64,000 nucleotides of DNA from Heptranchias perlo (lineage: Eukaryota). Location: positions 1 to 64,000 of the forward strand of contig NW_027140008.1 in assembly GCF_035084215.1 (NCBI RefSeq). Direction: 5' to 3'. Made by a program: the position numbers and the translations under genes. Shown piece by piece: positions 15,969 to 56,627 of this stretch. The notes under the pieces are model-generated. The model was not told the origin of the DNA, made no database searches, and saw only the letters and a list, made by a program, of their open reading frames with translations. How positions within the stretch are numbered: position 1 is the stretch's first letter; every line of letters begins with the position of its first letter.

Positions 15969-16014
15969 ATGAAGTCGATGATTTTTATCTCCCTCCCCGT
16001 CTTCCTGATGGCCG
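15969..16014 (+). CDS. Ig-like receptor exon 1: signal peptide MKSMIFISLPVFLMA(G)
   Basis: ATG, 15 mostly hydrophobic codons plus 1 nt, then a GTAAGG donor (phase 1). Splices in frame to the V exon giving MKSMIFISLPVFLMAGLAGG, the classic split Ig/TCR leader. Confidence 0.85.
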
Positions 16015-17475: not shown

Positions 17476-17577
17476 TTCGATACCAAGGTTTATATTGACT
17501 GATGTCAAAGAGTGTAGCTGTAGCTGTGAACAGCCTACGTTTCCTGAGTCCGTTAGCTGCGTACCTCCTATTTTCAG

Positions 17578-17958
17578 GTCTTGCCGGCGGTGTGGGCAAC
17601 TTTCGATTCTCGTCCACCTTGATGACGGTGCAGGAGGGTGAGTCAGTCAACATGGAGTGCCGATTCTCCCGCAAAACCGACGATCGTTACTTGATCTGGG
17701 GGTCCGTGCCCCCGGGCAGCAGGGTCATCAAACAACTGGTGTACTGGAGCCCTGGGTCGCAGGTGCCCACCTTTACGACGGGCGAGCCTCACCGTTACGT
17801 GGCCGAGAAGAACTTTGCCCAGTCACTCATGTCCCTGCGGATCATCAATGCCACGCAGCGAGACTCCACCAGATACTTCTGCCAATTCACAAACCACCAG
17901 GGAGACCTGAACGCGACAGACTGGTGTGGATGTGGGTCGACACTGAAGGTTGAGGCCG
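17578..17958 (+). CDS. Ig-like receptor exon 2: single-exon VJ-type V-set domain
   Basis: TTTTCAG acceptor, GTAAGG donor, 381 nt, phase 1-1. Motifs: TVQEGESVNMEC (B-strand Cys), YLIW (Trp), MSLRIINATQRDSTRYFC (DxxxYxC) and J-like WCGCGSTLKVE within the same exon. Confidence 0.93.
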
Positions 17959-18209
17959 GTAAGGGGAGTTCCACCGTAACTCGTTCGAAGCCCGGGGAGG
18001 GGCAGGGGGGGATGGTCAGTCCTTGGGCCGGGCACCAAATTTGGAGGGGGGTCGGGGGCAGGGGGCTGGAGTAGAAGAGCCAGAGGGGGTGGTGGGGGGG
18101 AAGAGGGTGGAGAAGGGCGGGAGGGAGAGTGGAGCAGAAGGGACGCAAGCTTTGGGTATCAAGGGCAGAAGGTTGTAGGAGGAGGGGGAAGATTTGGGCT
18201 GGGGAGGAG

Positions 18210-19697
18210 CCCCACAGTTTGGGGGTGAACAGTCCCACAGTTTGGGGGGTGAGGAGTCCCCACAGTTTGGGGGGTGAGGAGTCCCACAGTTTGGGGTGAG
18301 GAGTCCCCACAGTTTGGGGGTGAGGAGTCCCACAGTTTGGGGGGTGAGGAGTCCCACAGTTTGGGGGGTGAGGAGTCCCCACAGTTTGGGGGGTGAGGAG
18401 TCCCACAGTTTGGGGGGGTGAGGAGTCCCACAGTTTGGGGGGGTGAGGAGTCCCACAGTTTGGGGTGAGGAGTCCCACAGTTTGGGGGTGAGGAGTCCCA
18501 CAGTTTGGGGGGTGAGGAGTCCCACAGTTTGGGGGTGAGGAGTCCCACAGTTTGGGGGGGTGAGGAGTCCCACAGTTTGGGGGTGAGGAGTCCCCACAGT
18601 TTGGGGGTGAGGAGTCCCACAGTTTGGGGGGTGAGGAGTCCCACAGTTTGGGGGTGAGGAGTCCCACAGTTTGGGGGGTGAGGAGTCCCCACAGTTTGGG
18701 GTGAGGAGTCCCACAGTTTGGGGTGAGGAGTCCCCACAGTTTGGGGGGTGAGGAGTCCCCACAGTTTGGGGGTGAGGAGTCCCCACAGTTTGGGGGGTGA
18801 AGAGTCCCCACAGTTTGGGGGGTGAGGAGCCCCCACAGTTTGGGGGGTGAGGAGTCACACAGTTTGGGGGATGAAGAGTCCCCACAGTTTGGGGGGTGAG
18901 GAGCCCCCACAGTTTGGGGGGTGAGGAGTCCCACAGTTTGGGGTGAGGAGCCCCCACAGTTTGGGGTGAGGAGCCCCCACAGTTTGGGGGGTGAGGAGCC
19001 CCCACAGTTTGGGGTGAGGAGCCCCCACAGTTTGGGGGTGTGAGGAGTCCCACAGTTTGGGGGGTGAGGAGTCCCACAGTTTGGGGGGTGAGGAGTCCCA
19101 CAGTTTGGGGGGTGAGGAGTCCCACAGTTTGGGGGTGAGGAGTCCCACAGTTTGGGGGGTGAGGAGCCCCCACAGTTTGGGGGGTGAGGAGTCCCCACAG
19201 TTTGGGGGGTGAAGAGTCCCCACAGTTTGGGGGGTGAGGAGTCCCCACAGTTTGGGGGGTGAAGAGTCCCCACAGTTTGGGGGGGTGAGGAGTCCCACAG
19301 TTTGAGGGGTGAGGAGCCCCCACAGTTTGGGGGTGAGGAGCCCCCACAGTTTGGGGGGTGAGGAGCCCCCACAGTTTGGGGGGTGAAGAGTCCCCACAGT
19401 TTGGGGGGTGAGGAGCCCCCACAGTTTGGGGGGTGAGGAGTCCCACAGTTTGGGGGGTGAGGAGCCCCCACAGTTTGGGGGGTGAGGAGCCCCCACAGTT
19501 TGGGGGGTGAAGAGTCCCACAGTTTGGGGGGTGAGGAGCCCCCACAGTTTGGGGGGTGAGGAGCCCCCACAGTTTGGGGGGTGAAGAGTCCCACAGTTTG
19601 GGGGGTGAGGAGCCCCCACAGTTTGGGGGGGTGAGGAGCCCCCACAGTTTGGGGGGTGAAGAGTCCCCACAGTTTGGGGGGTGAAGAGTCCCCACAA
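18210..19697. repeat. G-rich ~25-bp minisatellite (CCCACAGTTTGGGGGGTGAGGAGTC) in the V-C1 intron
   Basis: Tandem units. Confidence 0.95.
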
Positions 19698-19824
19698 TGG
19701 GTTTCCAAGTATCTTGGTGTTTATTGTTGATATCTGTGTCTCTGTTTTATAAAATGAGAGAATTTGACATCATGGTGGGACAGCATTCGACCCATTGCAT
19801 CCGTGCCCTCTCTCTGAACCAGCT

Positions 19825-20410
19825 CTCCCCTCGATTCTGGCCGAGGGACAGACTGTCAGTGATTGGCCCCTCGATTCTGGGCGAGGGACAGACTGAGATC
19901 AGTGATTGGCCCCTCGATTCTGGGCGAGGGACAGACTGTCAGTGATTGGCCCCTCGATTCTGGACGAGGGACAGACTGTCAGTGATTGGCCCCTCGATTC
20001 TGGCCGAGGGACAGACTGTCAGTGATTGGCCCCTCGATTCTGGGCGAGGGACAGACTGTCAGTGATTGGCCCCTCGATTCTGGGCGAGGGACAGACTGAG
20101 ATCAGTGATTGGCCCCTCGATTCTGGGCGAGGGACAGACTGTCAGTGATTGGCCCCTCGATTCTGGGCGAGGGACAGACTGTCAGTGATTGGCCCCTCGA
20201 TTCTGGGCGAGGGACAGACTGTCAATGATTGGCCCCTCGATTCTGGGCGAGGGACAGACTGTCAATGATTGGCCCCTCGATTCTGGGCGAGGGACAGACT
20301 GTCAATGATTGGCCCCTCGATTCTGGGCGAGGGACAGACTGTCAGTGATTGGCCCCTCGATTCTGGGCGAGGGACAGACTGTCAATGATTGGCCCCTCGA
20401 TTCTGGGCGA
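19825..20410. repeat. 40-bp minisatellite (CCCCTCGATTCTGGGCGAGGGACAGACTGTCAGTGATTGG)
   Basis: Tandem units running up to the C1 acceptor. Confidence 0.95.
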
Positions 20411-20445
20411 GGATCTGTGATTGGCCGTCTCGATTCTGGTTGCAG

Positions 20446-20763
20446 TCCCACCAATGGCTACTCCCTCGGTCCACCTCCAATTCCCGCCCCCGGAGGAGAT
20501 ATCGGAGAACGGTTTCACCGCCCTGCTCTGCCTCGTCACCGGATTCTACCCATCGAGGGTCCGAATTTCCTGGTATGTGAACGGCAAGCCGGTGACGTCA
20601 GGAACGAGTGAACTGTGCCTGTCCAAGGACCCCACGGAGAGGTACACAGCCATTGGCCGGCTGGAGGTCAGTGGCCCAGAGTGGGTGAGTGCCGACACGT
20701 ACCAGTGTGTCGTCTCGCACCAGACGCTGACCCGGCCCATCGCCAAGGAGATCAGGACGAGCG
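20446..20763 (+). CDS. Ig-like receptor C1-set domain C1
   Basis: TTGCAG / GTGAGT, 318 nt, phase 1-1. PSVHLQFPP..ALLCLVTGFYPSRVRISWYVNG..RYTAIGRLEVSGPEWVSADTYQCVVSH shows the C1-set CxxxGFYP, W and YxCxVxH motifs. Confidence 0.95.
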
Positions 20764-21632: not shown

Positions 21633-21953
21633 CTCGATACCCATCGGCCCCCAGACTCCACATCCTACCCCCCAGTTACAGCGAGATGGACACCAATGGG
21701 ACGGCCACATTGGGGTGTCAGGCTGATGGGTTTTATCCCAAGAGCATCTCCTTCACCTGGCTGGTCGGGACACTCCAGCCGACCTACTCCTCTGAGGCCG
21801 GCCGCACCACGAGGCACGAGAATGGGACCTACAGTTCCAGCAACTGGTTAACGGTTCCCGTCCGAGAATGGAATTCAGGCTCACTCTTCACCTGCCGGGT
21901 CGAACACCTCTCGTCACCAACCCCACTGACCCACAACCTCAGCAAACACGACG
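21633..21953 (+). CDS. Ig-like receptor C1-set domain C2
   Basis: CTGCAG / GTAAAT, 321 nt, phase 1-1. PRLHILPPS..TATLGCQADGFYPKSISFTW..NGTYSSSNWLTVPVREWNSGSLFTCRVEH. Confidence 0.95.
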
Positions 21954-25917: not shown

Positions 25918-28900
25918 TAAGAACATAAGAACATAAGAAATAGGAGCAGGAGTAGGCCATTCGGCCCCTCGAGCCTGCTCCGCCGTTCGATCAGATCATG
26001 GCTGATCTTCGACCTCAACTCCACTTTCCCGCCCGATCCCCATATCCCTTGATTCCCCGAGAGTCCAAAAATCTATCAATCTCAGCCTTGAATATACTCA
26101 ATGATTCACCATCCACAGCCCTCTGGGGTAGAGAATTCCAAAGATTCACAACCCTCTGAGTGAAGAAATTCCTCCTCATCTCAGTCTTGAATGTCCGACC
26201 CCTTATCCTGAGACTATGCCCCCTGGTTCTAGACTCTCCAGACAGGGGAAATAATCTCTCAGCATCTACCCTGTCAAACCCCCTCAGAATCTTATATGTT
26301 TCAATGAGATCACCTCTCATTCTTCTAAACTCCAGAGAGTATCGGCCCATTCTACTCAATCTCTCCTCATAGGACAATCCTCTCATCCCAGGAATTAATC
26401 TAGTGAACCTTCGTTGCACCGCCTCTAAGGCAAGTCTATCCTTCCTTAGATAAGGAGACCAAAACTGTACACAGTACTCCAGGTGAGGTCTCACCAAAGC
26501 CCTGCACAATTGTAGTAAGACTTCCTTACTCTTGTACTCCAATCCCCCTTGCAACCATCTTCAGCCAGAAGTGCCGAGTGGATAATCCATCTCAGCCTCC
26601 TCCCGATATCCCCACCATCACGGAAGCCAGTCTTCGGCCAATTCGATTCACTCCACGTGATATCAAGAAACGGCTGAGTGCACTGGATACAGCAAAGGCT
26701 ATGGGCCCTGACAACATCCCAGCTGTAGTGCTGAAGACTTGTGCTCCAGAACTAGCTGCGCCTCTAGCCAAGCTGTTCCAGTACAGCTACAACACTGGCA
26801 TCCACCCGACAATGTGGAAAATTGCCCAGGTATGTCCTGTCCACAAAAAGCAGGACAAATCCAATCCGGCCAATTACCGCCCCATCAGTCTACTCTCAAT
26901 CATCAGCAAAGTGATGGAAGGTGTCGTCGACAGTGCTATCAAGCGGCACTTACTCACCAATAACCTGCTCACCGATGCTCAGTTTGGGTTCCGCCAGGAC
27001 CACTCGGCTCCAGACCTCATTACAGCCTTGGTCCAAACATGGACAAAAGAGCTGAATTCCAGAGGTGAGGTGAGAGTGACTGCCCTTGACATCAAGGCAG
27101 CATTTGACCGAGTGTGGCACCAAGGAGCCCTAGTAAAATTGAAGTCAATGGGAATCAGGGGGAAAACTCTCCAGTGGCTGGAGTCATACCTAGCACAAAG
27201 GAAGATGGTAGTGGTTGTTGGAGGCCAATCATCTCAGCCCCAGGACATTGCTGCAGGAGTTCCTCAGGGCAGTGTCCTAGGCCCAACCATCTTCAGCTGC
27301 TTCATCAATGACCTTCCCTCCATCATAAGGTCAGAAATGGGGATGTTCGCTGATGACTGTACAGTGTTCAGTTCCATTCGCAACCCCTCAAATAATGAAG
27401 CAGTCCGAGCCCGCATGCAGCAAGACCTGGACAACATCCAGGCTTGGGCTCATAAGTGGCAAGTAACATTCGCGCCAGATAAGTGCCAGGCAATGACCAT
27501 CTCCAACAAGAGAGAGTCTAACCACCTCCCCTTGACATTCAACGGCATTACCATCGCCGAATCCCCCACCATCAACATCCTGGGGGTCACCATTGACCAG
27601 AAACTTAACTGGACCAGCCATATAAATACTGTGGCTACAAGAGCAGGTCAGAGGCTGGGTATTCTGCGGCGAGTGACTCACCTCCTGACTCCCCAAAGCC
27701 TTTCCACCATCTACAAGGCACAAGTCAGGAGTGTGATGGAATACTCTCCACTTGCCTGGATGAGTGCAGCTCCAACAACACTCAAGAAGCTCGACACCAT
27801 CCAAGATAAAGCAGCCCACTTGATTGGCACCCCATCCACCACCCTAAACATTCACTCCCTTCACCACCGGCGCACAGTGGCTGCAGTGTGCACCATCCAC
27901 AGGATGCACTGCAGCAACTCGCCAAGGCTTCTTCGACAGCACCTCCCAAACCCGCGACCTCTACCACCTAGAAGGACAAGAGCAGCAGGCACATGGGAAC
28001 AACACCACCTGCACGTTCCCCTCCAAGTCACACACCATCCCGACTTGGAAATATATCGCCGTTCCTTCATCGTCACTGGGTCAAAATCCTGGAACTCCCT
28101 TCCTAACAGCACTGTGGGAGAACCGTCACCACACGGACTGCAGCGGTTCAAGAAGGCGGCTCACCACCACCTTCTCAAGGGCAATTAGGGATGGGCAATA
28201 AATGCCGGCCTCGCCAGCGACGCCCACATCCCGTGAACGAATAAAAAAAAAAATAAAGGCCAACATGGCATTTGCTTTCCTAATTACTTGCTGTACCTCC
28301 ATGTTAACTTTTTGTGTTTCTTGTACGAGGACACCCAAATCCCTCTGAACACCAACATTTAATAGTTTCTCACCATTTAAAAAATATTCTGTTTTTCTAT
28401 TCTTCCTACCAAAGTGAATAACCTCACATTTCCCCACATTATACTCCATCTGCCACCTTCTCACCCACTCACTTAACCTCTCTATATCCCTTTGCAGACT
28501 CTTTGTGTCCTCCTCACAGTTTACTCTCCCACCGAGCTTTGTATCGTCAGCAAACTTGGAAACATTACACTCGGTCCCTTCATCTAAGTCATTAATATAG
28601 ATTGTAAATAGCTGAGGCCCAAGCACTGATCCCTGCGATACCCCACTAGTTACAGCCTGCCAACCTGAGAATGACCCGTTTATCCCTACTCTCTGTTTTC
28701 TGTCCGTTAACCAATCCTCTATCCATGTTAATACATTACCCCCGACCCCATGAGCCCTTATCTCGTGTAACAACCTTTTATGTGGCACCTTATCGAATGC
28801 CTTTTGAAAATCCAAATATACTCCATCCACTGGTTCCCCTTTATCCACCCTGCTAGTTACACACTCAAAAAACTCTGATAAATTTGTCAAGCACGATTTC

Positions 28901-37994: not shown

Positions 37995-38312
37995 TGCCTT
38001 CTCCACAGCCTCCCTCCATCTTTCTCCACCATCCTCCTGCTGATGAGACGAGGACACCAGGCCTGACCCAGCTCCTGTGTGGCGCGACAGGATTCTACCC
38101 GGGAGTGATCTCGCTGAGCTGGGAGGTGGATGGTCAGAAGGTCAGCTTGGGCCTGTCAGACAGCGACCCCTCGCTGGCTCCAGACGGGAGTTACACCCTG
38201 ATCAGCCGGCTGGACGTCACCATCTCTGAGTGGGAGGCTGGATCTCTGTACAGCTGCGTTGTGTCCCACAGGTCACTGCCGGTGCCAGTCAGGAGACAGA
38301 TCAGAGGTGGAG
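37995..38312 (+). CDS. Ig-like receptor C1-set domain C3
   Basis: CCTTTTCTAG / GTGAGT, 318 nt, phase 1-1. PSIFLHHPP..QLLCGATGFYPGVISLSWEVDG..DGSYTLISRLDVTISEWEAGSLYSCVVSH. Confidence 0.95.
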
Positions 38313-38538
38313 GTGAGTGACTTACGACTGATACGGACCGGGTCACGTCCCGAAATTGGTCAGTCCCAGAGGGATGAGAGGTCAGTGTGTGACCCACTGC
38401 CCTATCAGAGAGAGAGAGGAGTCTTCCGTCCCCTCTGTCTGCGGCTGGATTTGACCCCAAGGTCCTCGAGGTGAAATTGAGTTTGTTCCTCCAGTTTCCC
38501 TCTCTCCTAATCCATGTTTCTTCTCCCTCCCCCCTCAG

Positions 38539-38859
38539 CACTCCCTCCCTCCCCTCCGTCTCTTCATCTGGTTCCACCGTCCATCCGGGAGATTCTAACC
38601 AATCGGACGGCTACGCTGGCCTGCATCGCCACTGAGTTCTACCCGGCTACGATATCCTTCGAGTGGCGGGTGGGGGGCTCGGAGATGGCCCATGGCCTCC
38701 GGACCCTGCCCCTTGCTGCCAATCCGGGCGGGACCTTCAGTTCCAGGAGTGAGTTAACGGTGCCTGTGGAGAGGTGGGAATCGGGCGAGAGCTTCACCTG
38801 TCTGGTTCGCCACCAATCACTGGGGAGCCCGGTAACCAGCACCGTCGCTAATGGAGACA
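38539..38859 (+). CDS. Ig-like receptor C1-set domain C4
   Basis: CCCCTCAG / GTGAGT, 321 nt, phase 1-1. PSLHLVPPS..TATLACIATEFYPATISFEW..GTFSSRSELTVPVERWESGESFTCLVRH. Confidence 0.95.
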
Positions 38860-38884
38860 GTGAGTAATCGACGGGGGTGGGGTC

Positions 38885-39530
38885 CGGTCTCAGAGACCAG
38901 GCCTGGGGGGGAGTGGGGGATGGGGGTCCACAGGGTCTCGGAGACCAGGCCTGGAGGGTGGAGTGGGGGACGGGGTTTGCAGGGTCTCGGAGACCAGGCC
39001 TGGGGGGTGGAGTGGGAGATGGGGTCCACAGGGTCTCGGAGACCAGGCCTGGGGGGTGGAGTGGGGGACGGGGTTTGCAGGGTCTCGGAGACCAGGCCTG
39101 GGGGGGAGTGGGGGATGGGGGTCCACAGGGTCTCGGAGACCAGGCCTGGAGGGTGGAGTGGGGGATGGGGTCCACAGGGTCTCGGAGACCAGGCCTGGGG
39201 GGTGGAGTGGGGGACGGGGTTTGTAGGGTCTCGGAGACCAGGCCTGGGGGGTGGAGTGGGGGACGGGGTTTGCAGGGTCTCGGAGACAAGGCCTGGGGGG
39301 TGGAGTGGGGGACGGGGTTTGCAGGGCCTCAGAGACCAGGCCTGGGGGGTGGAGTGGGGGATGGGGTCCACAGGGTCTCGGAGACCAGGCCTGGGGGGTG
39401 GAGTGGGGGACGGGGTTTGTAGGGTCTCGGAGACCAGGCCTGGGGGGTGGAGTGGGGGACGGGTTTTTTAGGGTCTCGGAGACCAGGCCTGGGGGGTGGA
39501 GTGGGGGACGGGGTCTGCAGGGTCTCGGGG
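38885..39530. repeat. G-rich 49-bp minisatellite (second copy at ~44641-45286)
   Basis: CAGGGTCTCGGAGACCAGGCCTGGGGGGTGGAGTGGGGGA.. units. Confidence 0.93.
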
Positions 39531-39706
39531 CCAGCCCTCGGTGTGGGGAGGGGAGATGGACTGACTCTCTGCAGCCTGTGCGTCCTCTCTGGGCCAGGTA
39601 ACCGGCTGGGACGGGACGGGGGACAGAATGTGGTGACCCAGACAAATTGTGATGGGAGTAAAGGGGAATGACCAGGTCCAGAGCACTTGCCCTGTGTCCA
39701 GCACAG

Positions 39707-39760
39707 GCCCCAAAGACCTGGAGAAAACCCTGAGAACTAATCCCCCATCACCCCTAGACG
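39707..39760 (+). CDS. Candidate hinge/linker mini-exon (S)PKDLEKTLRTNPPSPLD
   Basis: TGTGTCCAGCACAG acceptor, G|GTGAGA donor, 54 nt, phase 1-1, open and Pro-rich; lies in the unique island between two minisatellites. Confidence 0.55.
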
Positions 39761-39774
39761 GTGAGAGAGTCGGG

Positions 39775-40270
39775 GGACTGGAGGGAGGGGCTTCGATGGG
39801 AGGGTTAGGGGATTAGAGGGAGGGGCTTGGATGGGCGGGTTAGGGGATTAGAGGGAGGGGCTTTGATGGGAGTGTTAGGGGATTAGAGGGAGGGGCTTTG
39901 ATGGGAGGGTTAGGGGATTAGAGGGAGGGACTTTGATGGGAGTGTTAGGGGATTAGAGGGAGGGGCTTTGATGGGAGGGTTAGGGGATTAGAGGGAGGGG
40001 CTTCAATGGGAGGGTTAGGGGCTTAGAGGGAGGGGCTTTGATGGGAGGGTTAGGGGATTAGAGGGAGGGGCTTTGATGGGAGGGTTAGGGGATTAGAGGG
40101 AGGGGCTTTGATGGGAGGGTTAGGGGATTAGAGGGAGGGTCTTCAATGGGAGGGTTAGGGGCTTAGAGGGAGGGGCTTTGATGGGAGGGTTAGGGGATTA
40201 GAGGGAGGGGCTTTGATGGGAGGGTTAGGGGATTAGAGGGAGGGGCTTTGATGGGCGGGTTAGGGGATTG
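39775..40270. repeat. G-rich 35-bp minisatellite (copy at ~45531-45886, four units shorter)
   Basis: GGATTAGAGGGAGGGGCTTTGATGGGAGGGTTAGG units. Confidence 0.93.
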
Positions 40271-40416
40271 GTGGAAGGAATAGATTACAAGGAGATGGGT
40301 TTCGATCGGCGATTAACGGTAGTTGAGGTCAGAGCTTCACTCGATGGGTGACAGCACCAGACGGGGGAGCCCAGGTTTCTCTGGGGCTTTTAAACCAATT
40401 CTTTTACTAATTGCAG

Positions 40417-40740
40417 CCCAGCGTCTGAAGTGTCCTGAAATAGTCACCATGGAAGTGGATTGGCAGAGGGTCACAGCCACCGCTGGGACCACACACCTTG
40501 CCTGCTTTGTGTTCGGCTTCTACCCTGGGGACGTGTACTTGACCTGGCGAGCTGAGGGCATCGAGGTCACAAACTCAACCATGACCTTCCCGGTGATCCC
40601 TGACCAGGGCGGGACATTCCGGACGGTCAGTCAGCTCTCGGTCCCATCGGAAGACTGGGAGGGGGGCCGAGTCTACAGCTGTCTGGTGGGACACCAGTCC
40701 TCGAAAGTGCTGATGGAGAGTCACCTCAGTAAGGATGGAG
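40417..40740 (+). CDS. Ig-like receptor C1-set domain C5
   Basis: CTAATTGCAG / GTAAGG, 324 nt, phase 1-1. RLKCPEIV..THLACFVFGFYPGDVYLTW..GTFRTVSQLSVPSEDWEGGRVYSCLVGH. Confidence 0.95.
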
Positions 40741-41019
40741 GTAAGGAGGGAGCCTCTCACTCGGATAACTCTCTGAGCTGCCTCCGCAGCCCAACCTCCC
40801 TAAACTCCAACTCATCCTAAACTCCTGACGGCCCCACGTCCTCCTGCTCTTTGCACCCCCCTCCCTCCCTTCCCCTCCCCTCCCCTGATCCACGCCCCAC
40901 TGGCTCTTTTGCTCCTCTGACACTTCAGTTCCAAATTCTTGTCCAGGTTGTCACTCCTGCCTCCGTATCATTCCCTCTGTCCCTTTCTCTGTGATCTCCT
41001 CCTTCCTTATATAGAATTA

Positions 41020-43180
41020 CACAGAATTTACAGCACAGGAACAGGCCATTCAGCCCATCAGGTCTATCCCGGTGTTTATGCTCCACACGAGCCTCCTCCC
41101 TCCCGACTCCATCTCACCCTCTCACCATTTCCTTCTATTCCTTTCTCCCCCATGTGTTTATCGAGCTTCCCCTTAAATCCATCTCCACTATTCACCTCAA
41201 CTACTCCTTGTGGGAGTGAGTTCCACATTCTCACCACTCTCTGGGGAAAGAAGTTTCTCCTGAATTCCCCATTGGATTTATCAGTGACTCTCTTATATTT
41301 ATGGCCCCCCCCTAGTTCTGGTCTCCCCCACAAGTGGGAATATCTTCTCTACGTCTACCCTATCGAACCCTCTCATAATCTGAAAGACCTCGATCAGGTC
41401 ACCCCTCAGTCTTCTCTTTGAGAGACAAGAGCCCCAGCCTGTTCAGCCTTTCCTGATAGTTATAAACCTCTCAGTTCTGGGATCACCCTGGTAAATCTTT
41501 TTTTGCACCTTCTCCTGTGCCTCGATATCCTTTTATATCCTAAAGCCCCCGCACACTTGCTTCTGCTCTCCAACACCCTTCTCTTTAACCCCTGCTCCTT
41601 CTGCTTGACCAGTGTTGCTCTCAGTGTTGGGGGGGTGGAAATCTGGAACTCTCTCCCCCAAAAATCTGTGGAGGCTGGGGGTCAATTGAAAATGTTAAAC
41701 TAAGATCGATAGATTTTTGTTGGGTGAGGGGATTCAGGGTTACTGAGCCAAGGCGGGTAAATGGAGTGAAGATACAGATCAGCCATGATCTAATGGAATG
41801 ACGGGACAGGCCCGAGGGGCAGAATGGCCTCCTCCTGTTCCTGTGTAACAGGCCCGAGGGGCTGAATGGCCTCCTCCTGTTCCTGTGTAACAGGCCCGAG
41901 GGGCTGAATGGCCTCCTCCTGTTCCTGTGTAACAGGCTCGAGGGGCTGAATGGCCTCCTCCTGTTCCTGTGTAACAGGCCCGAGGGGCTGAATGGCCTCC
42001 TCCTGTTCCTGTGTAACAGGCTCGAGGGGCTGAATGGCCTCCTCCTGTTCCTGTGTAACAGGCTCGAGGGGCTGAATGGCCTCCTCCTGTTCCTGTGTAA
42101 CAGACTCGAGGGGCTGAATGGCCTCCTCCTGTTCCTGTGTAACAGGCTCGAGGGGCTGAATGGCCTCCTCCTGTTCCTGTGTTCACCAGGCTCCTCTCCT
42201 CTGGGAATCCATTCCCTCCATCTGATCGCTTGCCTTCCTGATTTTAGAAACTTCCTTCAAATGCGAACTCTATCCCTGAACCCTGAACTTTATCCAATAC
42301 TAATCCCATCTCGGCTCCAAACACTTCCTGAACCTTCCTTCCCCACTGGATAAAACCTTCTCAAATCCAAACACAACCCCGAACTCATTATCTCCACCTC
42401 GAACTCTGAACCCCAACTCCGTCCATTTCCCCCTTCTGCCTGGTGTTTAGTATAGTATCACAGCATGTTATAGCACAGGATGAGGCCGTTCAGCCCATCG
42501 GGCCTGTGCCGGCTCTTTGAAAGATCTATCCAATCAGTCCCACTCCCCCTGCTCTTTCCCCGTCTCCCTGTAAATTTTTTCCCTTCCGGTATTTCTCCGA
42601 TTCCCCTTTTGAAAGTTATTATTGAATCTGTTCCCACTCCCCTTTCAGGCAGTGAATTCCAGATCATCACAACTCGCTGTAAAAAAACATTCTCCTCATC
42701 TCCCCCTCTGGCTCTTTCCCCGATCACCTTAAATCCGTGTCCTCTGGTTCCCGACCCTCCTGCCCCCTGGAAACAGTCTCTCCTTATTTACTCTCTCAAA
42801 ACCCCTTCCTGATTTTGAACCCCTCGATCAAATCTCCCCTTAACCTTCTCTGCTCTGAGGAGAACAATCCCAGCTTCTCCAGTCTCTCCACATCACTGAA
42901 GTCCCTCATCCCTGGGACCATTCCAGTAAATCTCCTCCGCACCCTCTCCAAGGCCGTCACATCTTTCCTAAAGTGCGGTGCCCAGAACTGGACACAATAC
43001 TCCAGTTGTGGTCGAACCAGTGTTTTATATAAAGGTTCATCATAACTCCCTCGCTTTTGTACTCTGTGCCTCTATTTATAAAGCCCAGGATCCCGAATGC
43101 TTTTCTAACCACTTTCTCAACCTGCCCTGCCACCTTCAATGATTTGTGTCCATTTACCCCCAGATCTCTCTGTTCCTATT
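41020..43180. mobile_element. CR1 3' fragments (mixed orientation) and a 42-bp CR1-tail minisatellite; duplicated at ~46636-48796
   Basis: RRNFFPQRVVRMWNSLP on the minus strand; AGGCTCGAGGGGCTGAATGGCCTCCTCCTGTTCCTGTGTAAC repeats at ~41810-42185; minus-strand CR1 piece 42460-43170. Confidence 0.8.
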
Positions 43181-43324
43181 CCTGTAATTGAGAAGTTGGA
43201 CCTGAGGAGAACAGAGTGAGGGACAGAGATCAGTGAGGACAAGATCCTCCAGGAAACAGGAGCTTGATAATCCTGAGAAAGATCACTCCCTGCTCTCAGT
43301 GTCTTGCTGCACTGACTCGCGATG

Positions 43325-44180
43325 AGAGAGGGATCGTCCCTCCCTCCCTCTCACTCCTCTGTGAAGAGGGATCGTCCCTCCCTCCCTCCCACTCCTCTGT
43401 GAAGAGGGATCGTCCCTCCCTCCCTCTCACTCCTCTGTGAAGGGGAATCGTCCCTCCCTCCCTCTCACTCCTCTGTGAAGGGGAATCGTCCCTCCCTCCC
43501 TCCCACTCCTCTGTGAAGAGGGATCGTCCCTCCCTCCCTCTCACTCCTCTGTGAAGGGGAATCGTCCCTCCCTCCCTCCCACTCCTCTGTGAAGAGGGAT
43601 CGTCCCTCCCTCCCTCCCACTCCTCTGTGAAGAGGGATCGTCCCTCCCTCCCTCCCACTCCTCTGTGATGAGGGATCGTCCCTCCCTCCCTCTCACTCCT
43701 CTGTGAAGAGGGATCGTCCCTCCCTCCCTCCCACTCCTCTGTGAAGAGGGATCGTCCCTCCCTCCCTCCCACTCCTCTGTGAAGAGGGATCGTCCCTCCC
43801 TCCCTCCCACTCCTCTGTGAAGAGGGATCGTCCCTCCCTCCCTCCCACTCCTCTGTGAAGAGGGATCGTCCCTCCCTCCCTCCCACTCCTCTGTGAAGAG
43901 GGATCGTCCCTCCCTCCCTCTCACTCCTCTGTGAAGAGGGATCGTCCCTCCCTCCCTCCCACTCCTCTGTGAAGAGGGATCGTCCCTCCCTCCCTCTCAC
44001 TCCTCTGTGAAGGGGAATCGTCCCTCCCTCCCTCCCACTCCTCTGTGAAGAGGGATCGTCCCTCCCTCCCTCCCACTCCTCTGTGAAGGGGAATCGTCCC
44101 TCCCTCCCTCCCACTCCTCTGTGAAGGGGAATCGTCCCTCCCTCCCTCCCACTCCTCTGTGAAGGGGAATCGTCCCTCCC
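43325..44180. repeat. 38-bp minisatellite (GAAGAGGGATCGTCCCTCCCTCCCTCCCACTCCTCTGT)
   Basis: Tandem units; the tandem-duplication junction lies at its right end. Confidence 0.95.
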
Positions 44181-44294
44181 TTCTGCCCCTCTGTCTGCGG
44201 CTGGATTTGACCCCAAGGTCCTCGAGGTGAAATTGAGTTTGTTCCTCCAGTTTCCCTCTCTCCTAATCCATGTTTCTTCTCCCTCCCCCCTCAG

Positions 44295-44615
44295 CACTCC
44301 CTCCCTCCCCTCCGTCTCTTCATCTGGTTCCACCGTCCATCCGGGAGATTCTAACCAATCGGACGGCTACGCTGGCCTGCATCGCCACTGAGTTCTACCC
44401 GGCTACGATATCCTTCGAGTGGCGGGTGGGGGGCTCGGAGATGGCCCATGGCCTCCGGACCCTGCCCCTTGCTGCCAATCCGGGCGGGACCTTCAGTTCC
44501 AGGAGTGAGTTAACGGTGCCTGTGGAGAGGTGGGAATCGGGCGAGAGCTTCACCTGTCTGGTTCGCCACCAATCACTGGGGAGCCCGGTAACCAGCACCG
44601 TCGCTAATGGAGACA
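44295..44615 (+). CDS. Duplicated domain C4'
   Basis: Translation identical to C4; splice sites intact; offset +5756. Confidence 0.85.
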
Positions 44616-45462
44616 GTGAGTAATCGACGGGGGTGGGGTCCGGTCTCAGAGACCAGGCCTGGGGGGGAGTGGGGGATGGGGGTCCACAGGGTCTCGGAGA
44701 CCAGGCCTGGAGGGTGGAGTGGGGGACGGGGTTTGCAGGGTCTCGGAGACCAGGCCTGGGGGGTGGAGTGGGAGATGGGGTCCACAGGGTCTCGGAGACC
44801 AGGCCTGGGGGGTGGAGTGGGGGACGGGGTTTGCAGGGTCTCGGAGACCAGGCCTGGGGGGGAGTGGGGGATGGGGGTCCACAGGGTCTCGGAGACCAGG
44901 CCTGGAGGGTGGAGTGGGGGATGGGGTCCACAGGGTCTCGGAGACCAGGCCTGGGGGGTGGAGTGGGGGACGGGGTTTGTAGGGTCTCGGAGACCAGGCC
45001 TGGGGGGTGGAGTGGGGGACGGGGTTTGCAGGGTCTCGGAGACAAGGCCTGGGGGGTGGAGTGGGGGACGGGGTTTGCAGGGCCTCAGAGACCAGGCCTG
45101 GGGGGTGGAGTGGGGGATGGGGTCCACAGGGTCTCGGAGACCAGGCCTGGGGGGTGGAGTGGGGGACGGGGTTTGTAGGGTCTCGGAGACCAGGCCTGGG
45201 GGGTGGAGTGGGGGACGGGTTTTTTAGGGTCTCGGAGACCAGGCCTGGGGGGTGGAGTGGGGGACGGGGTCTGCAGGGTCTCGGGGCCAGCCCTCGGTGT
45301 GGGGAGGGGAGATGGACTGACTCTCTGCAGCCTGTGCGTCCTCTCTGGGCCAGGTAACCGGCTGGGACGGGACGGGGGACAGAATGTGGTGACCCAGACA
45401 AATTGTGATGGGAGTAAAGGGGAATGACCAGGTCCAGAGCACTTGCCCTGTGTCCAGCACAG

Positions 45463-45516
45463 GCCCCAAAGACCTGGAGAAAACCCTGAGAACTAATCCC
45501 CCATCACCCCTAGACG
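45463..45516 (+). CDS. Duplicated candidate hinge mini-exon
   Basis: Identical to 39707-39760. Confidence 0.5.
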
Positions 45517-46032
45517 GTGAGAGAGTCGGGGGACTGGAGGGAGGGGCTTCGATGGGAGGGTTAGGGGATTAGAGGGAGGGGCTTGGATGGGCGGGTTAGG
45601 GGATTAGAGGGAGGGGCTTTGATGGGAGTGTTAGGGGATTAGAGGGAGGGGCTTTGATGGGAGGGTTAGGGGATTAGAGGGAGGGACTTTGATGGGAGTG
45701 TTAGGGGATTAGAGGGAGGGGCTTTGATGGGAGGGTTAGGGGATTAGAGGGAGGGGCTTCAATGGGAGGGTTAGGGGCTTAGAGGGAGGGGCTTTGATGG
45801 GAGGGTTAGGGGATTAGAGGGAGGGGCTTTGATGGGAGGGTTAGGGGATTAGAGGGAGGGGCTTTGATGGGCGGGTTAGGGGATTGGTGGAAGGAATAGA
45901 TTACAAGGAGATGGGTTTCGATCGGCGATTAACGGTAGTTGAGGTCAGAGCTTCACTCGATGGGTGACAGCACCAGACGGGGGAGCCCAGGTTTCTCTGG
46001 GGCTTTTAAACCAATTCTTTTACTAATTGCAG

Positions 46033-46356
46033 CCCAGCGTCTGAAGTGTCCTGAAATAGTCACCATGGAAGTGGATTGGCAGAGGGTCACAGCCACCGCT
46101 GGGACCACACACCTTGCCTGCTTTGTGTTCGGCTTCTACCCTGGGGACGTGTACTTGACCTGGCGAGCTGAGGGCATCGAGGTCACAAACTCAACCATGA
46201 CCTTCCCGGTGATCCCTGACCAGGGCGGGACATTCCGGACGGTCAGTCAGCTCTCGGTCCCATCGGAAGACTGGGAGGGGGGCCGAGTCTACAGCTGTCT
46301 GGTGGGACACCAGTCCTCGAAAGTGCTGATGGAGAGTCACCTCAGTAAGGATGGAG
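46033..46356 (+). CDS. Duplicated domain C5'
   Basis: Translation identical to C5; splice sites intact; offset +5616. Confidence 0.85.
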
Positions 46357-48939
46357 GTAAGGAGGGAGCCTCTCACTCGGATAACTCTCTGAGCTGCCTC
46401 CGCAGCCCAACCTCCCTAAACTCCAACTCATCCTAAACTCCTGACGGCCCCACGTCCTCCTGCTCTTTGCACCCCCCTCCCTCCCTTCCCCTCCCCTCCC
46501 CTGATCCACGCCCCACTGGCTCTTTTGCTCCTCTGACACTTCAGTTCCAAATTCTTGTCCAGGTTGTCACTCCTGCCTCCGTATCATTCCCTCTGTCCCT
46601 TTCTCTGTGATCTCCTCCTTCCTTATATAGAATTACACAGAATTTACAGCACAGGAACAGGCCATTCAGCCCATCAGGTCTATCCCGGTGTTTATGCTCC
46701 ACACGAGCCTCCTCCCTCCCGACTCCATCTCACCCTCTCACCATTTCCTTCTATTCCTTTCTCCCTCATGTGTTTATCGAGCTTCCCCTTAAATCCATCT
46801 CCACTATTCACCTCAACTACTCCTTGTGGGAGTGAGTTCCACATTCTCACCACTCTCTGGGGAAAGAAGTTTCTCCTGAATTCCCCATTGGATTTATCAG
46901 TGACTCTCTTATATTTATGGCCCCCCCCTAGTTCTGGTCTCCCCCACAAGTGGGAATATCTTCTCTACGTCTACCCTATCGAACCCTCTCATAATCTGAA
47001 AGACCTCGATCAGGTCACCCCTCAGTCTTCTCTTTGAGAGACAAGAGCCCCAGCCTGTTCAGCCTTTCCTGATAGTTATAAACCTCTCAGTTCTGGGATC
47101 ACCCTGGTAAATCTTTTTTTGCACCTTCTCCTGTGCCTCGATATCCTTTTATATCCTAAAGCCCCCGCACACTTGCTTCTGCTCTCCAACACCCTTCTCT
47201 TTAACCCCTGCTCCTTCTGCTTGACCAGTGTTGCTCTCAGTGTTGGGGGGGTGGAAATCTGGAACTCTCTCCCCCAAAAATCTGTGGAGGCTGGGGGTCA
47301 ATTGAAAATGTTAAAACGAAGATCGATAGATTTTTGTTGGGTGAGGGGATTCAGGGTTACTGAGCCAAGGCGGGTAAATGGAGTGAAGATACAGATCAGC
47401 CATGATCTAATGGAATGACGGAACAGGCCCGAGGGGCAGAATGGCCTCCTCCTGTTCCTGTGTAACAGGCCCGAGGGGCTGAATGGCCTCCTCCTGTTCC
47501 TGTGTAACAGGCCCGAGGGGCTGAATGGCCTCCTCCTGTTCCTGTGTAACAGGCTCGAGGGGCTGAATGGCCTCCTCCTGTTCCTGTGTAACAGGCCCGA
47601 GGGGCTGAATGGCCTCCTCCTGTTCCTGTGTAACAGGCTCGAGGGGCTGAATGGCCTCCTCCTGTTCCTGTGTAACAGGCTCGAGGGGCTGAATGGCCTC
47701 CTCCTGTTCCTGTGTAACAGACTCGAGGGGCTGAATGGCCTCCTCCTGTTCCTGTGTAACAGGCTCGAGGGGCTGAATGGCCTCCTCCTGTTCCTGTGTT
47801 CACCAGGCTCCTCTCCTCTGGGAATCCATTCCCTCCATCTGATCGCTTGCCTTCCTGATTTTAGAAACTTCCTTCAAATGCGAACTCTATCCCTGAACCC
47901 TGAACTTTATCCAATACTAATCCCATCTCGGCTCCAAACACTTCCTGAACCTTCCTTCCCCACTGGATAAAACCTTCTCAAATCCAAACACAACCCCGAA
48001 CTCATTATCTCCACCTCGAACTCTGAACCCCAACTCCGTCCATTTCCCCCTTCTGCCTGGTGTTTAGTATAGTATCACAGCATGTTATAGCACAGGATGA
48101 GGCCGTTCAGCCCATCGGGCCTGTGCCGGCTCTTTGAAAGATCTATCCAATCAGTCCCACTCCCCCTGCTCTTTCCCCGTCTCCCTGTAAATTTTCTCCT
48201 TCCAGTATTTCTCCGATTCCCCTTTTGAAAGTTATTATTGAATCTGTTCCCACTCCCCTTTCAGGCAGTGAATTCCAGATCATCACAACTCACTGTAAAA
48301 AAACATTCTCCTCATCTCCCCCTCTGGCTCTTTCCCCGATCACCTTAAATCCGTGTCCTCTGGTTCCCGACCCTCCTGCCCCCTGGAAACAGTCTCTCCT
48401 TATTTACTCTCTCAAAACCCCTTCCTGATTTTGAACCCCTCGATCAAATCTCCCCTTAACCTTCTCTGCTCTGAGGAGAACAATCCCAGCTTCTCCAGTC
48501 TCTCCACATCACTGAGGTCCCTCATCCCTGGGACCATTCCAGTAAATCTCCTCCGCACCCTCTCCAAGGCCGTCACATCTTTCCTAAAGTGCGGTGCCCA
48601 GAACTGGACACAATACTCCAGTTGTGGTCGAACCAGTGTTTTATATAAAGGTTCATCATAACTCCCTCGCTTTTGTACTCTGTGCCTCTATTTATAAAGC
48701 CCAGGATCCCGAATGCTTTTCTAACCACTTTCTCAACCTGCCCTGCCACCTTCAATGATTTGTGTCCATTTACCCCCAGATCTCTCTGTTCCTATTCCTG
48801 TAATTGAGAAGTTGGACCTGAGGAGAACAGAGTGAGGGACAGAGATCAGTGAGGACAAGATCCTCCAGGAAACAGGAGCTTGATAATCCTGAGAAAGATC
48901 ACTCCCTGCTCTCAGTGTCTTGCTGCACTGACTCGCGAT

Positions 48940-50845
48940 GAGAGAGGGATCGTCCCTCCCTCCCTCTCACTCCTCTGTGAAGAGAGGACTCGTCCCTCCC
49001 TCCCTCCCACTCCTCTGTGAAGAGGGATCGTCCCTCCCTCCTTCCCACTCCTCTGTGAAGGGGAATCGTCCCTCCCTCCCTCCCACTCCTCTGTGAAGAG
49101 CAATCGTCCCTCCCTCCCTCCCACTCCTCTGTGAAGAGCGATCGTCCCTCCCTCCCTCCCACTCCTCTGTGAAGAGGGATCGTCCCTCCCTCCCTCTCAC
49201 TCCTCTGTGAAGGGGAATCGTCCCTCCCTCCCTCCCACTCCTCTGTGAAGAGCAATCGTCCCTCCCTCCCTCCCACTCCTCTGTGAAGAGCAATCGTCCC
49301 TCCCTCCCTCTCACTCCTCTGTGAAGAGCAATCGTCCCTCCCTCCCTCCCACTCCTCTGTGAAGGGGGATCGTCCCTCCCTCCCTCCCACTCCTCTGTGA
49401 AGGGGAATCGTCCCTCCCTCCCTCTCACTCCTCTGTGAAGGGGAATCGTCCCTCCCTCCCTCCCACTCCTCTGTGAAGGGGAATCGTCCCTCCCTCCCTC
49501 TCACTCCTCTGTGAAGAGCAATCGTCCCTCCCTCCCTCCCACTCCTCTGTGAAGAGGGATCGTCCCTCCCCTCCCTCTCACTCCTCTGTGAAGAGCAATC
49601 GTCCCTCCCTCCCTCCCACTCCTCTGTGAAGAGCAATCGTCCCTCCCTCCCTCCCACTCCTCTGTGAAGGGGGATCGTCCCTCCCTCCCTCCCACTCCTC
49701 TGTGAAGAGGGATCGTCCCTCCCTCCCTCCCACTCCTCTGTGAAGAGCAATCGTCCCTCCCTCCCTCCCACTCCTCTGTGAAGAGCAATCGTCCCTCCCT
49801 CCCTCCCACTCCTCTGTGAAGAGGGATCGTCCCTCCCTCCCTCCCACTCCTCTGTGAAGAGGGATCGTCCCTCCCTCCCTCCCACTCCTCTGTGAAGAGG
49901 GATCGTCCCTCCCTCCCTCTCACTCCTCTGTGAAGAGCAATCGTCCCTCCCTCCCTCCCACTCCTCTGTGAGGAGCAATCGTCCCTCCCTCCCTCCCACT
50001 CCTCTGTGAGGAGCAATCGTCCCTCCCTCCCTCCCACTCCTCTGTGAGGAGCAATCGTCCCTCCCTCCCTCCCACTCCTCTGTGAAGAGCAATCGTCCCT
50101 CCCTCCCTCCCACTCCTCTGTGAAGAGCAATCGTCCCTCCCTCCCTCCCACTCCTCTGTGAAGAGGGATCGTCCCTCCCTCCCTCCCACTCCTCTGTGAA
50201 GGGGAATCGTCCCTCCCTCCCTCCCACTCCTCTGTGAAGAGCAATCGTCCCTCCCTCCCTCCCACTCCTCTGTGAAGAGCGATCGTCCCTCCCTCCCTCC
50301 CACTCCTCTGTGAAGGGGAATCGTCCCTCCGTCCCTCCCACTCCTCTGTGAAGAGGGATCGTCCCTCCCTCCCTCTCACTCCTCTGTGAAGAGCAATCGT
50401 CCCTCCCTCCCTCCCACTCCTCTGTGAAGAGGGATCGTCCCTCCCTCCCTCCCACTCCTCTGTGAAGAGGGATCGTCCCTCCCTCCCTCCCACTCCTTTG
50501 TGAAGAGGGATCGTCCCTCCCTCCCTCCCACTCCTCTGTGAAGGGGAATCGTCCCTCCCTCCCTCCCACTCCTCTGTGAAGAGCAATCGTCCCTCCCTCC
50601 CTCCCACTCCTCTGTGAAGAGGGATCGTCCCTCCCTCCCTCCCACTCCTCTGTGAAGAGGGATCGTCCCTCCCTCCCTCCCACTCCTCTGTGAAGGGGAA
50701 TCGTCCCTCCCTCCCTCCCACTCCTCTGTGAAGAGCGATCGTCCCTCCCTCCCTCCCACTCCTCTGTGAAGAGGGATCGTCCCTCCCTCCCTCCCACTCC
50801 TCTGTGAAGGGGAATCGTCCCTCCCTCCCTCCCACTCCTCTGTGA
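48940..50845. repeat. 38-bp minisatellite (long array)
   Basis: Same unit as 43325-44180. Confidence 0.95.
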
Positions 50846-50989: not shown

Positions 50990-51127
50990 GGCCCTGGACT
51001 TGGCGCGGAAAGATTCAGCTCGCAGCCTGGCTCTGGGTACTCTGTGCAGTCGGAGGGCTGGTCATCTACACTGTCATCATCCTGGCCATTTACCAAGGCC
51101 TCAGGACCTGCTCGCGGAAGGGACAGT
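50990..51127 (+). CDS. Ig-like receptor transmembrane exon
   Basis: ACACAG acceptor, T|GTAAGT donor, 138 nt, phase 1-1. Translates GPWTWRGKIQLAAWLWVLCAVGGLVIYTVIILAIYQGLRTCSRKGQ: a hydrophobic helix followed by basic stop-transfer residues. Confidence 0.88.
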
Positions 51128-54887: not shown

Positions 54888-54973
54888 GCAATATCAGTGG
54901 GACTGGTGACACACTCTGGGCAAAGGGTGGAATTCAATTGGATGTCGTCCGCCCCCTGGATCAGAACGGGTAG
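54888..54973 (+). CDS. Ig-like receptor cytoplasmic-tail exon (C)NISGTGDTLWAKGGIQLDVVRPLDQNG*
   Basis: Very strong polypyrimidine acceptor (TTTTTGTTCTCCACTCTCCTCTCCTCCAG); phase matches the TM donor; open to TAG at 54971-54973. Confidence 0.7.
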
Positions 54974-55004: not shown

Positions 55005-56600
55005 GGTCTCCATATACCTTGGTTAGACCACACTCGGAGCACTGTGCACAGTTCTGGTCTCCATATACCTGGGTTAGACCACACTCGGAGCACTGTGCAC
55101 AGTTCTGGTCTCCATATACCTGGGTTAGACCTCACTCGGAGCACTGTGCACAGTCCCGGTCTCCATATACCTTGGTTAGACCACACTTGGAGCACTGTGC
55201 ACAGTTCTGGTCTCCATATACCTTGGTTAGACCTCACTCGGAGCACTGTGCACAGTCCTGGTCTCCATATACCTCGGTTAGACCACACTCGGAGCACTGT
55301 GCACAGTTCTGGTCTCCATATACCTCGGTTAGACCACACTCGGAGCACTGTGCACAGTCCTGGTCTCCATATACCTCGGTTAGACCACACTCGGAGCACT
55401 GTGCACAGTTCTGGTCTCCATATACCTCGGTTAGACCACACTCGGAGCACTGTGTACAGTTCTGGTCTCCATATACCTGGGTTAGACCACACTCGGAGCA
55501 CTGTGCACAGTTCTGGTCTCCATATACCTCGGTTAGACCACACTCGGAGCACTGTGTACAGTTCTGGTCTCCATATACCTGGGTTAGACCACACTCGGAG
55601 CACTGTGCACAGTTCTGGTCTCCATATACCTTGGGTAGACCACACTCGGAGCACTGTGCACAGTTCCGGTCTCCATATACCTTGGTTAGACCACACTCGG
55701 AGCACTGTGCACAGTTCCGGTCTCCATATACCTTGGTTAGACCACACTCGGAACACTGTGCACAGTTCTGGTCTCCATATACCTGGGTTAGACCACACTC
55801 GGAGCACTGTGCACAGTTCTGGTCTCCATATACCTTGGTTAGACCACACTCGGAGCACTGTGCACAGTTCTGGTCTCCATATACCTTGGTTAGACCACAC
55901 TCGGAGCACTGTGCACAGTCCTGGTCTCCATATACCTTGGTTAGACCACACTCGGAGCACTGTGCACAGTCCTGGTCTCCATATACCTTGGTTAGACCAC
56001 ACTTGGAGCACTGTACACAGTTCTGGTCTCCATATACCTTGGTTCGACCACACTCGGAGCACTGTGCACAGTTCTGGTCTCCATATTATAAAAAGGATAT
56101 AGAGGCACTGGAGAAGCTGCAAAAAAGATTTACCAGGATGATCCCAGAACTGAGAGGTTTATAACTATCAGGAAAGGCTGAACAGACTGGGGCTCTTTTC
56201 TCTGGAAAAGAGAAGACTGAGGGGTGACCTGATCGAGGTCTTTAAGATTATGAGAGGGTTCGATAGGGTAGACGTAGAGAAGATGTTTCCACTTGTGGGG
56301 GAGACCAGAACTAGGGGGGGCCATAAATATAAGAGAGTCACTAATAAATCCAATGGGGAATTCAGGAGAAACTTCTTTCCCCAGAGAGTGGTGAGAATGT
56401 GGAACTCGCTCCCACAAGGAGTGGTTGAGGTGAATAGTGGAGATGGATTTAAGGGGAAGCTCGATAAACACATGAGGGAGAAAGGAACAGAAGGAGAGGG
56501 TGAGAGGGTGAGATGGAGGAGGGAGGGAGGAGCCTCGTGTGGAGCATAAACCCCGGGATAGACCCGATGGGCCGAATGGCCTGTTTCTGCACTGTAGCCT
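55005..56600 (+). mobile_element. CR1 3' fragment with 51-bp expansion (part of an inverted copy of intron 1)
   Basis: Reverse complement of ~16045-17475 with a few substitutions. Confidence 0.9.
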
Positions 56601-56627
56601 CGATATAAATCTCTGCGTAAACCTTAC

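What the first reader, a model, noticed from the sequence alone, without database searches (positions are those of the whole stretch)
17860..17958. Germline VJ with a Cys-substituted J motif (W-C-G-C-G-S-T-L-K-V) and a sequon in the fixed CDR3
Seen: after YFC comes QFTNHQGDLNATDW then CGCGSTLKVE, so the F/W-G-x-G diglycine bulge is written C-G-C-G. The CDR3-equivalent loop carries an N-A-T sequon, and there is a second NAT after the E strand. Known: the aromatic residue of F/WGxG packs the VH-VL interface. Inference: replacing it with Cys suggests no conventional light-chain pairing and possibly a disulfide-locked V-V homodimer or a CxC redox/metal site.
Basis: partly seen in the sequence, partly recalled or inferred. 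Interest (0 to 1): 0.7.

Follow-up and report, generated by a model that had tools for sequence, protein, structure and literature searches.

The report
Shark UrIg2 cysteine-locked V domain
This exon encodes the variable domain of UrIg2, a known shark antibody-like gene that is not rearranged, and its two extra cysteines likely lock two copies of the protein together, as the published crystal structure of the nurse shark protein shows; the motif is therefore ordinary for this gene.

Summary
The motif is real: W-C-G-C-G-S-T-L-K-V and two N-A-T sequons lie in one spliced V-J exon (17578-17958), unchanged in one DNA and three probable RNA assemblies of one sample. The gene is the orthologue of UrIg2: best PDB match 9DMX, E 7.9e-52 against 2e-7 for the next; tree support 100/99. 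Its cysteines fall at 112 and 114, where the 2.8 A nurse shark structure shows two inter-chain V-V disulfides in a non-Fv homodimer (PMC12227049). Both cysteines are kept in 9 of 9 published UrIg2 rows. Not found in print: this copy's seven-C-domain string, a C1 cysteine shifted by two residues, and a probable third UrIg-family gene (G000:C14), spliced, with the same C-x-C, with relatives in four other shark species. The scan reported the same gene and the third-gene lead before on another genome (e1-9514630). Interest 0.25.

The parts
15969..16014 (+). Leader exon (split leader, phase-1 donor); the database model starts at an upstream ATG at 15942
   Evidence: Only hydrophobic ATG..GT candidate upstream; its 3' end is the loose end in front of the V exon in 3 of 3 probable RNA contigs
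17578..17958 (+). Single V-J exon of UrIg2 (381 nt; canonical Cys23 at 17658, Trp36, Cys97 at 17880)
   Evidence: Pfam V-set E 8.2e-11; 9DMX E 7.9e-52; splice sites; contigs cover 17577-17958 exactly
17847..17855 (+). N-A-T sequon after the E strand (Asn86); present in 4 of 7 UrIg2 rows aligned here, absent in nurse shark
17910..17918 (+). N-A-T sequon at the end of the CDR3-equivalent loop (Asn107); N-x-T in 7 of 7 UrIg2 rows, 0 of 8 third-lineage rows, 0 of 2 UrIg rows
   Evidence: marked as potential site in fig. S2A legend; occupancy not shown
17922..17936 (+). W-C-G-C-G: Trp111, Cys112 (17925-17927), Cys114 (17931-17933); predicted inter-chain disulfide pair
   Evidence: Numbering from 17592 gives Cys 23, 97, 112, 114, the same numbers as the structure paper
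20446..20763 (+). Constant exon 1 (orthologue of UrIg2 C1); extra Cys at 20616-20618 (residue 180), two residues before nurse shark inter-chain Cys182
   Evidence: 105.5 bits to 9DMX C1 against 21.5 and 38.7 to C2 and C3; spliced to V in contigs
21633..21953 (+). Constant exon 2, closest to 9DMX C2
   Evidence: Pfam C1-set; 61.2 bits to C2 against 32.8 and 33.0
37995..38312 (+). Constant exon 3, best stretch on 9DMX C1
38539..38859 (+). Constant exon 4 (C2-like), first copy of the duplicated pair
   Evidence: 77.3 bits to 9DMX C2, 72.2 to C3
40417..40740 (+). Constant exon 5 (C3-like), first copy
   Evidence: 105.8 bits to 9DMX C3
44295..44615 (+). Constant exon 6, identical in DNA to exon 4
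   Evidence: 321 of 321 bases
46033..46356 (+). Constant exon 7, identical in DNA to exon 5
   Evidence: 321 of 321 bases compared
50990..51127 (+). Transmembrane exon
   Evidence: Exact match to P0001 residues 901-947; in frame with the exons before it; splicing not checked in RNA
54888..54973 (+). Short cytoplasmic exon; 3' end unsettled (stop at 54971 or a further splice)
   Evidence: Exact match to P0001 residues 948-974; sequence

Best explanation
The exon encodes the V domain of the shark's UrIg2, a germline-joined antibody-like gene, and Cys112 and Cys114 on its G strand likely form two symmetric disulfide bonds to the same residues of a second chain, which would make a covalent homodimer without a light chain. 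Shown here: the sequence, the single exon, leader-V-C1 splicing, orthology and conservation of both cysteines. Shown in the nurse shark orthologue only: the bonds, the A/G-strand pairing, the missing G-strand bulge, and expression highest in gill and liver. Inferred: that this protein pairs the same way, that it is a membrane protein with seven C domains stacked in Fc-like pairs, and that the paired V domains present two fixed binding surfaces for an innate ligand or for homophilic adhesion. The Asn107 glycan, if attached, would sit beside the cysteine pair at the tip of the dimer.
For: Best PDB sequence match by 45 orders of magnitude. All five distinct C exons also match 9DMX, first in rank for 4 of 5. 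Window V groups with six UrIg2 V domains at 100/99, apart from UrIg; 60-65% identity to three of them against 36% to this genome's own UrIg. Cys numbers 23, 97, 112, 114 coincide with the paper's. Both Cys in 9 of 9 published rows, W-C-G-C-G in 4 of 9. AlphaFold2 monomer (pLDDT 85.4) matches 9DMX first: E 7.7e-15, TM 0.82, rmsd 1.9 A.
Against: No dimer was modelled or measured for this sequence. The crystallised protein was made in mammalian cells, so the native oxidation state is inferred even for nurse shark. This copy keeps both glycines (C-G-C-G against C-S-C-G), so its G strand could bend differently; the monomer model has strand only from the second Cys onward. The third inter-chain bond is not conserved: the C1 Cys is at 180, not 182, and white shark P0003 has none. 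The TM centre reads L-V-I-Y, not the L-L-I-F named in the paper. Linkage to the antigen-receptor complex cannot be tested on a 69,235-base contig. The ligand is unknown in print.
Confidence: 0.9

Rival explanations
1. The C-x-C is an intra-chain redox or metal-binding site.
For: Two cysteines two residues apart, conserved. Nothing else.
Against: In 9DMX both are in inter-chain disulfides. The domain is extracellular, behind a signal peptide. UrIg keeps only the second Cys in 2 of 2 rows, which fits a dimer bond and not a two-Cys site.
Confidence: 0.03
2. The cysteines link UrIg2 to a different chain in vivo, for example UrIg or the third UrIg-family protein, as a heterodimer.
For: This genome holds two more family members with the second Cys, one with both; the third gene's spliced contigs occur in the same runs. 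The paper leaves open whether UrIg and UrIg2 act together.
Against: UrIg2 alone forms a well-buried homodimer (about 1,120 square A per V). The number of C domains differs strongly between the paralogues. Shared runs do not show shared cells.
Confidence: 0.05
3. It is a germline-joined conventional Ig light or heavy chain gene, or a decayed one, and the cysteines are drift or error.
For: Databases label orthologues as light-chain-like or heavy-chain-like; sharks have germline-joined Ig genes.
Against: No other letters in 4 of 4 assemblies; conservation across sharks and rays; open frame from leader to TM; 28-30% identity to two rearranging-type V segments of this genome; antibodies match 45 orders of magnitude worse.
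Confidence: 0.02

Closest known systems
UrIg2 of nurse shark (Flajnik et al. 2025, PMC12227049; PDB 9DMX)
   Same: Single VJ exon, split leader, C1-set domains, TM exon; Cys112 and Cys114; N-x-T at 107; near-identical repeated C2-C3 pairs.
   Different: W-C-G-C-G against F-C-S-C-G; extra sequon at 86; seven C exons (C1, C2-like, C1-like, then C2-C3 twice) against nine; C1 Cys at 180 against 182; TM centre L-V-I-Y against L-L-I-F. The genus name given for P0001 occurs 0 times in the paper's main text.
UrIg (MHC-linked; described in PMC12227049 and PMC10751288; the original J Immunol 2023 paper could not be read)
   Same: Non-rearranging VJ plus C1-set domains, reported as a disulfide-linked homodimer; keeps Cys114.
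   Different: W-S-G-C-G, no CDR3 sequon, three C domains, secreted. This genome's own UrIg lies on C42, 36% identical in V.
Rearranging Ig and TCR V domains (VH-VL, V-alpha/V-beta)
   Same: V-set fold, canonical Cys-Trp-Cys, J-like end T-L-x-V; VH domains are the next fold matches (TM about 0.75).
   Different: No recombination signals, F/W-G-x-G replaced, pairing by A and G strands and disulfides in the orthologue, no light chain.

Membership tests
UrIg2 | VJ domain in one exon, no recombination signal | tested here: met
   Exon 17578-17958; no RSS-like hit in 17479-20445; contigs cover it unbroken
UrIg2 | Split leader | tested here: met
   Leader exon 15969-16014 joined to V in 3 of 3 probable RNA contigs
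UrIg2 | V groups with UrIg2 and not with UrIg or rearranging V | tested here: met
   7 rows on one branch, 100/99; 60-65% identity, in or just above the paper's 50-60% range
UrIg2 | Non-canonical Cys112 and Cys114 on the G strand | tested here: met
UrIg2 | Several C1-set exons with near-identical repeated C2-C3 pairs, then a TM exon | tested here: met
   Seven C exons, one duplicated pair, TM exon in frame; the paper calls the number variable
UrIg2 | Inter-chain C1 cysteine at 182 (nurse shark structure) | tested here: not met
   Ser at 182, Cys at 180. The published white shark orthologue has no such Cys either, so it is not family-wide
UrIg2 | Linkage to IgH, TCR-alpha-delta and PSMB5 | not testable with these tools
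   Contig C1841 is 69,235 bases; no second gene was recognised on it
UrIg2 | Disulfide-linked homodimer through A and G strands | not testable with these tools
UrIg2 | Expression highest in gill and liver, not lymphoid tissue | not testable with these tools
   Runs are contigs with no tissue given
UrIg (MHC-linked) | W-S-G-C-G, three C domains, no TM, about 80% V identity between species | tested here: not met
   36% and 35% to two UrIg rows; TM present; a separate UrIg gene on C42
Rearranging or germline-joined Ig/TCR | F/W-G-x-G J motif and signals or Ig-type C regions | tested here: not met

The most novel reading that the evidence does not exclude
The cysteine lock marks an older and larger family than published: sharks carry a third, undescribed non-rearranging UrIg lineage (here G000:C14:59904028-59915409, minus strand; V-C1-C2-C3-TM with cytoplasmic tyrosine motifs), outside both the MHC and the antigen-receptor complex, with the same W-C-G-C. 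It would be a signalling receptor form of the family, imply that the double G-strand disulfide is ancestral and that UrIg lost Cys112, and add a third candidate relic of the V gene invaded by the RAG transposon.
Probability: 0.6. Interest if true: 0.6.

Novelty: new member of a known kind. Interest (0 to 1): 0.25.

Why it matters
The motif itself matters little now: its role is known from a crystal structure. This copy adds one more shark to the conservation record and one more C-domain arrangement. The side result matters more if it holds. The published model has two relics of the pre-RAG antigen receptor, one in the MHC and one in the antigen-receptor complex. A third, membrane-bound lineage with tyrosine motifs on another chromosome would change that count and give a way to look for ligand and signal.

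Tried and rejected
1. Suspected that the database's leader exon was a repeat, because it recurs inverted at 56700-56626; rejected, since contigs splice it to V. 2. Sequencing error: rejected. 3. Homodimer modelling: the complex predictor was not available, no verdict. 4. ESM Atlas gave no answer for the third-lineage V. 5. The original UrIg paper (J Immunol 2023) is not held; it or its supplements may mention further family members. 6. No run is on record as RNA; X5-X8 are guessed RNA, though their contigs skip introns at canonical ends; one sample only, so not independent and no expression level. 7. A regex control for Cys at the J position among fetched proteins (4 of 12) mixed family and non-family rows; not used. 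8. Number of C2-C3 pairs in the mRNA: contig lengths point both ways (X6 and X8 end about 25 nt into the repeated exon; X5 is short enough for one pair); unresolved. 9. Batoid-like origin of C exons 2 and 3: exon 2 joins the sawfish first C domain at 99/98 but on a branch flagged as long, exon 3 is unresolved; not claimed. 10. MHC-paralogon markers: PBC and NOD domains hit C9, C34, C40, C42 and not C14; no proteasome hit on C14 among 26 matches; counts are lower bounds. 11. P0130 (53 residues of V) was left out of the tree. 12. In some searches some exon borders were entered one base off; exons from leader to TM were corrected, the last exon was not.

Full report
Observation. The window is vertebrate DNA rich in repeats. 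An open frame at 17499-18071 holds a V-set domain (Pfam E 8.2e-11). It ends YFCQFTNHQGDLNATDWCGCGSTLKVEA, followed by a phase-1 donor at 17959. The cysteines are TGT codons at 17925 and 17931; the sequons lie at 17847 and 17910. One DNA assembly and three probable RNA assemblies of one sample show no other letter in the exon, and the RNA-type contigs run from the leader exon into V and on into C1. No recombination signal was found in the exon or the following intron.

Identity. The V domain's best match among solved structures is 9DMX, shark UrIg2 V-C1-C2-C3, at E 7.9e-52; the next is 2.2e-7. 9DMX reads F-C-S-C-G-T-T-L-K-V here. The five distinct constant exons match 9DMX too, first in rank for 4 of 5. 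A database protein, P0001 (980 aa, labelled uncharacterised, Heptranchias perlo), maps exon by exon at 100%. The exons from leader to TM have AG/GT ends, phase 1, and an open frame. The layout is leader, V, C1, C2-like, C1-like, C2, C3, C2, C3, TM, short tail. In a tree of 21 V domains the window's V sits with six UrIg2 orthologues at 100/99, apart from two UrIg rows (100/98) and five outgroup rows. An AlphaFold2 monomer (pLDDT 85.4, 15-row alignment) finds 9DMX first by fold (TM 0.82, rmsd 1.9 A).

What is published. I read the abstract, results sections 6, 7 and 10, passages of 8, 9 and 11, the first part of the discussion, section 16, methods section 18, part 1 of 2 of the supplementary PDF and the UrIg rows of table S1 of PMC12227049. 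Recombinant nurse shark V-C1-C2-C3 is a disulfide-linked homodimer. Two non-canonical bonds join the V domains at 112-112 and 114-114, a third joins C1 at 182-182, and the V domains meet through A and G strands, unlike an Fv. The G strand lacks the bulge of VH domains. Counting from 17592, the window's cysteines are 23, 97, 112 and 114, the same numbers. Fig. S2A keeps both cysteines in 9 of 9 UrIg2 rows: W-C-G-C-G in 4, F-C-G-C-G in 2, F-C-S-C-G in 3; the row labelled Etsp ends with the window's own N-A-T-D-W-C-G-C-G-S-T-L-K-V-E-A (read from dot notation). The legend marks the sequon as a potential site. Glycans were modelled only at 144, 253 and 328, and residues 104-109 of chain A were not modelled. 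Function is left open: innate binding or homophilic adhesion are suggested. Of PMC10751288 I saw passages only. The original UrIg paper could not be read.

Mechanism. The most likely reading is the published one carried over to an orthologue: each chain gives Cys112 and Cys114 to symmetric bonds with a second chain, the place of the light-chain-packing aromatic is taken by a covalent link, and the protein stands on the membrane as a rod of paired domains with two fixed V tips (inferred; 0.9). Results against a simple transfer: this copy has Gly where nurse shark has Ser between the cysteines; its C1 cysteine is at 180 with Ser at 182, and white shark has none; the TM centre is L-V-I-Y; no dimer was modelled. 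A redox or metal site has no support. A heterodimer with a paralogue is not excluded.

Conservation tested here. In one search, 7 of 7 UrIg2 rows have both cysteines and N-x-T before the aromatic residue; 4 of 7 have the sequon after the E strand; 2 of 2 UrIg rows read W-S-G-C-G. Three of the seven (P0002, P0003, P0007) are species already in the paper, so they are not independent of it. The second cysteine is invariant in 15 of 15 family rows of alignment A2.

Side result. The search of the own genome gave six V matches: the window, UrIg on C42, two rearranging-type V segments on C240, and two on C14. The first C14 match belongs to a gene with split leader, V (W-C-G-C-A), three C exons, a TM exon and a tail with two tyrosines. 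Contigs join V-C1 in 3 of 4 runs, C1 to the next exon in 4 of 4, and leader-V in 2 of 4, at canonical ends; in X5 the second C exon is left after about 72 bases for the third, which keeps the frame. TM and tail splicing were not checked. The second match is an inverted, broken copy. Relatives occur in Scyliorhinus torazame, Mustelus asterias, Chiloscyllium punctatum (two adjacent locus tags) and Rhincodon typus. Seven of eight such rows have both cysteines, none has the CDR3 sequon. They form one side of a branch at 88/86, which the tool rates as neither shown nor rejected; in the smaller tree they did not group. V identity is 46-48% to both UrIg and the window's UrIg2. Neighbours are a matrin-3-family gene and a P450 gene (CYP26-like by recall). 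Searches for 'urig2', 'urig3', 'UrIg + elasmobranch + paralog', 'UrIg + Flajnik' and two on non-rearranging shark genes (also 3) showed no paper on a third gene, and table S1 lists only UrIg2 entries; subscription journals are mostly not held.

Verdict. The motif is real, conserved and already explained by a crystal structure. The gene is a new member of a known kind. Interest 0.25; the third-lineage lead is the part worth following (probability 0.6, interest 0.6 if true).

Noticed in passing
G000:C14:59904028-59915409 (minus strand; loci L002, L009, L010): Probable third UrIg-family gene: split leader, V with W-C-G-C-A, C1, C2, C3, TM, tail with S-T-Y-E-N-V and a second Tyr. Spliced in probable RNA contigs; the C2 exon has lost its Trp and only its first 72 bases are used. 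Relatives in four other shark species.
   Followed up: yes
G000:C14:59936855-59942683 (plus strand; L004, L012, L013): Inverted, broken second copy of that gene: V exon interrupted by about 770 bases, W-C-G-Y-R, truncated C1, a tail-like piece near 59949800.
   Followed up: partly
G000:C42:3891503-3894620 (L003, L019): This genome's UrIg: compact V-C1-C2-C3, W-S-G-C-G. C42 also has a divergent NOD-domain hit and a proteasome hit, which fits the MHC chromosome; not tested further.
   Followed up: partly
window 55169-56764 (minus strand): Inverted 1.6-kb copy, 96% identical, of the leader exon, its flank and the 51-base minisatellite, just behind the gene's last exon; no V follows it on that strand.
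   Followed up: partly
window 38420-43500 and 44180-49120: The C2-C3 exon pair is duplicated with its introns at 99.2-99.8% identity: very recent duplication, gene conversion, or assembly artefact.
   Followed up: partly
window 20616-20618: C1 cysteine lies two residues before the nurse shark inter-chain Cys182; white shark has none.
   Followed up: partly
window 26407-28185: 593-codon open frame of a LINE-type reverse transcriptase (label recalled) inside the 16-kb intron between C exons 2 and 3.
   Followed up: no
G000:C14:59880288-59885938 (plus) and 59960357-59977624 (minus): Neighbours of the third gene: a matrin-3-family RNA-binding gene and a P450 gene (CYP26-like by recall). They could fix its chromosome of origin.
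   Followed up: partly
G000:C14:59922673-59928892 (L011): Fragmented frames that look like remains of an LTR retroelement (integrase-like piece; label recalled) between the two C14 copies.
   Followed up: no
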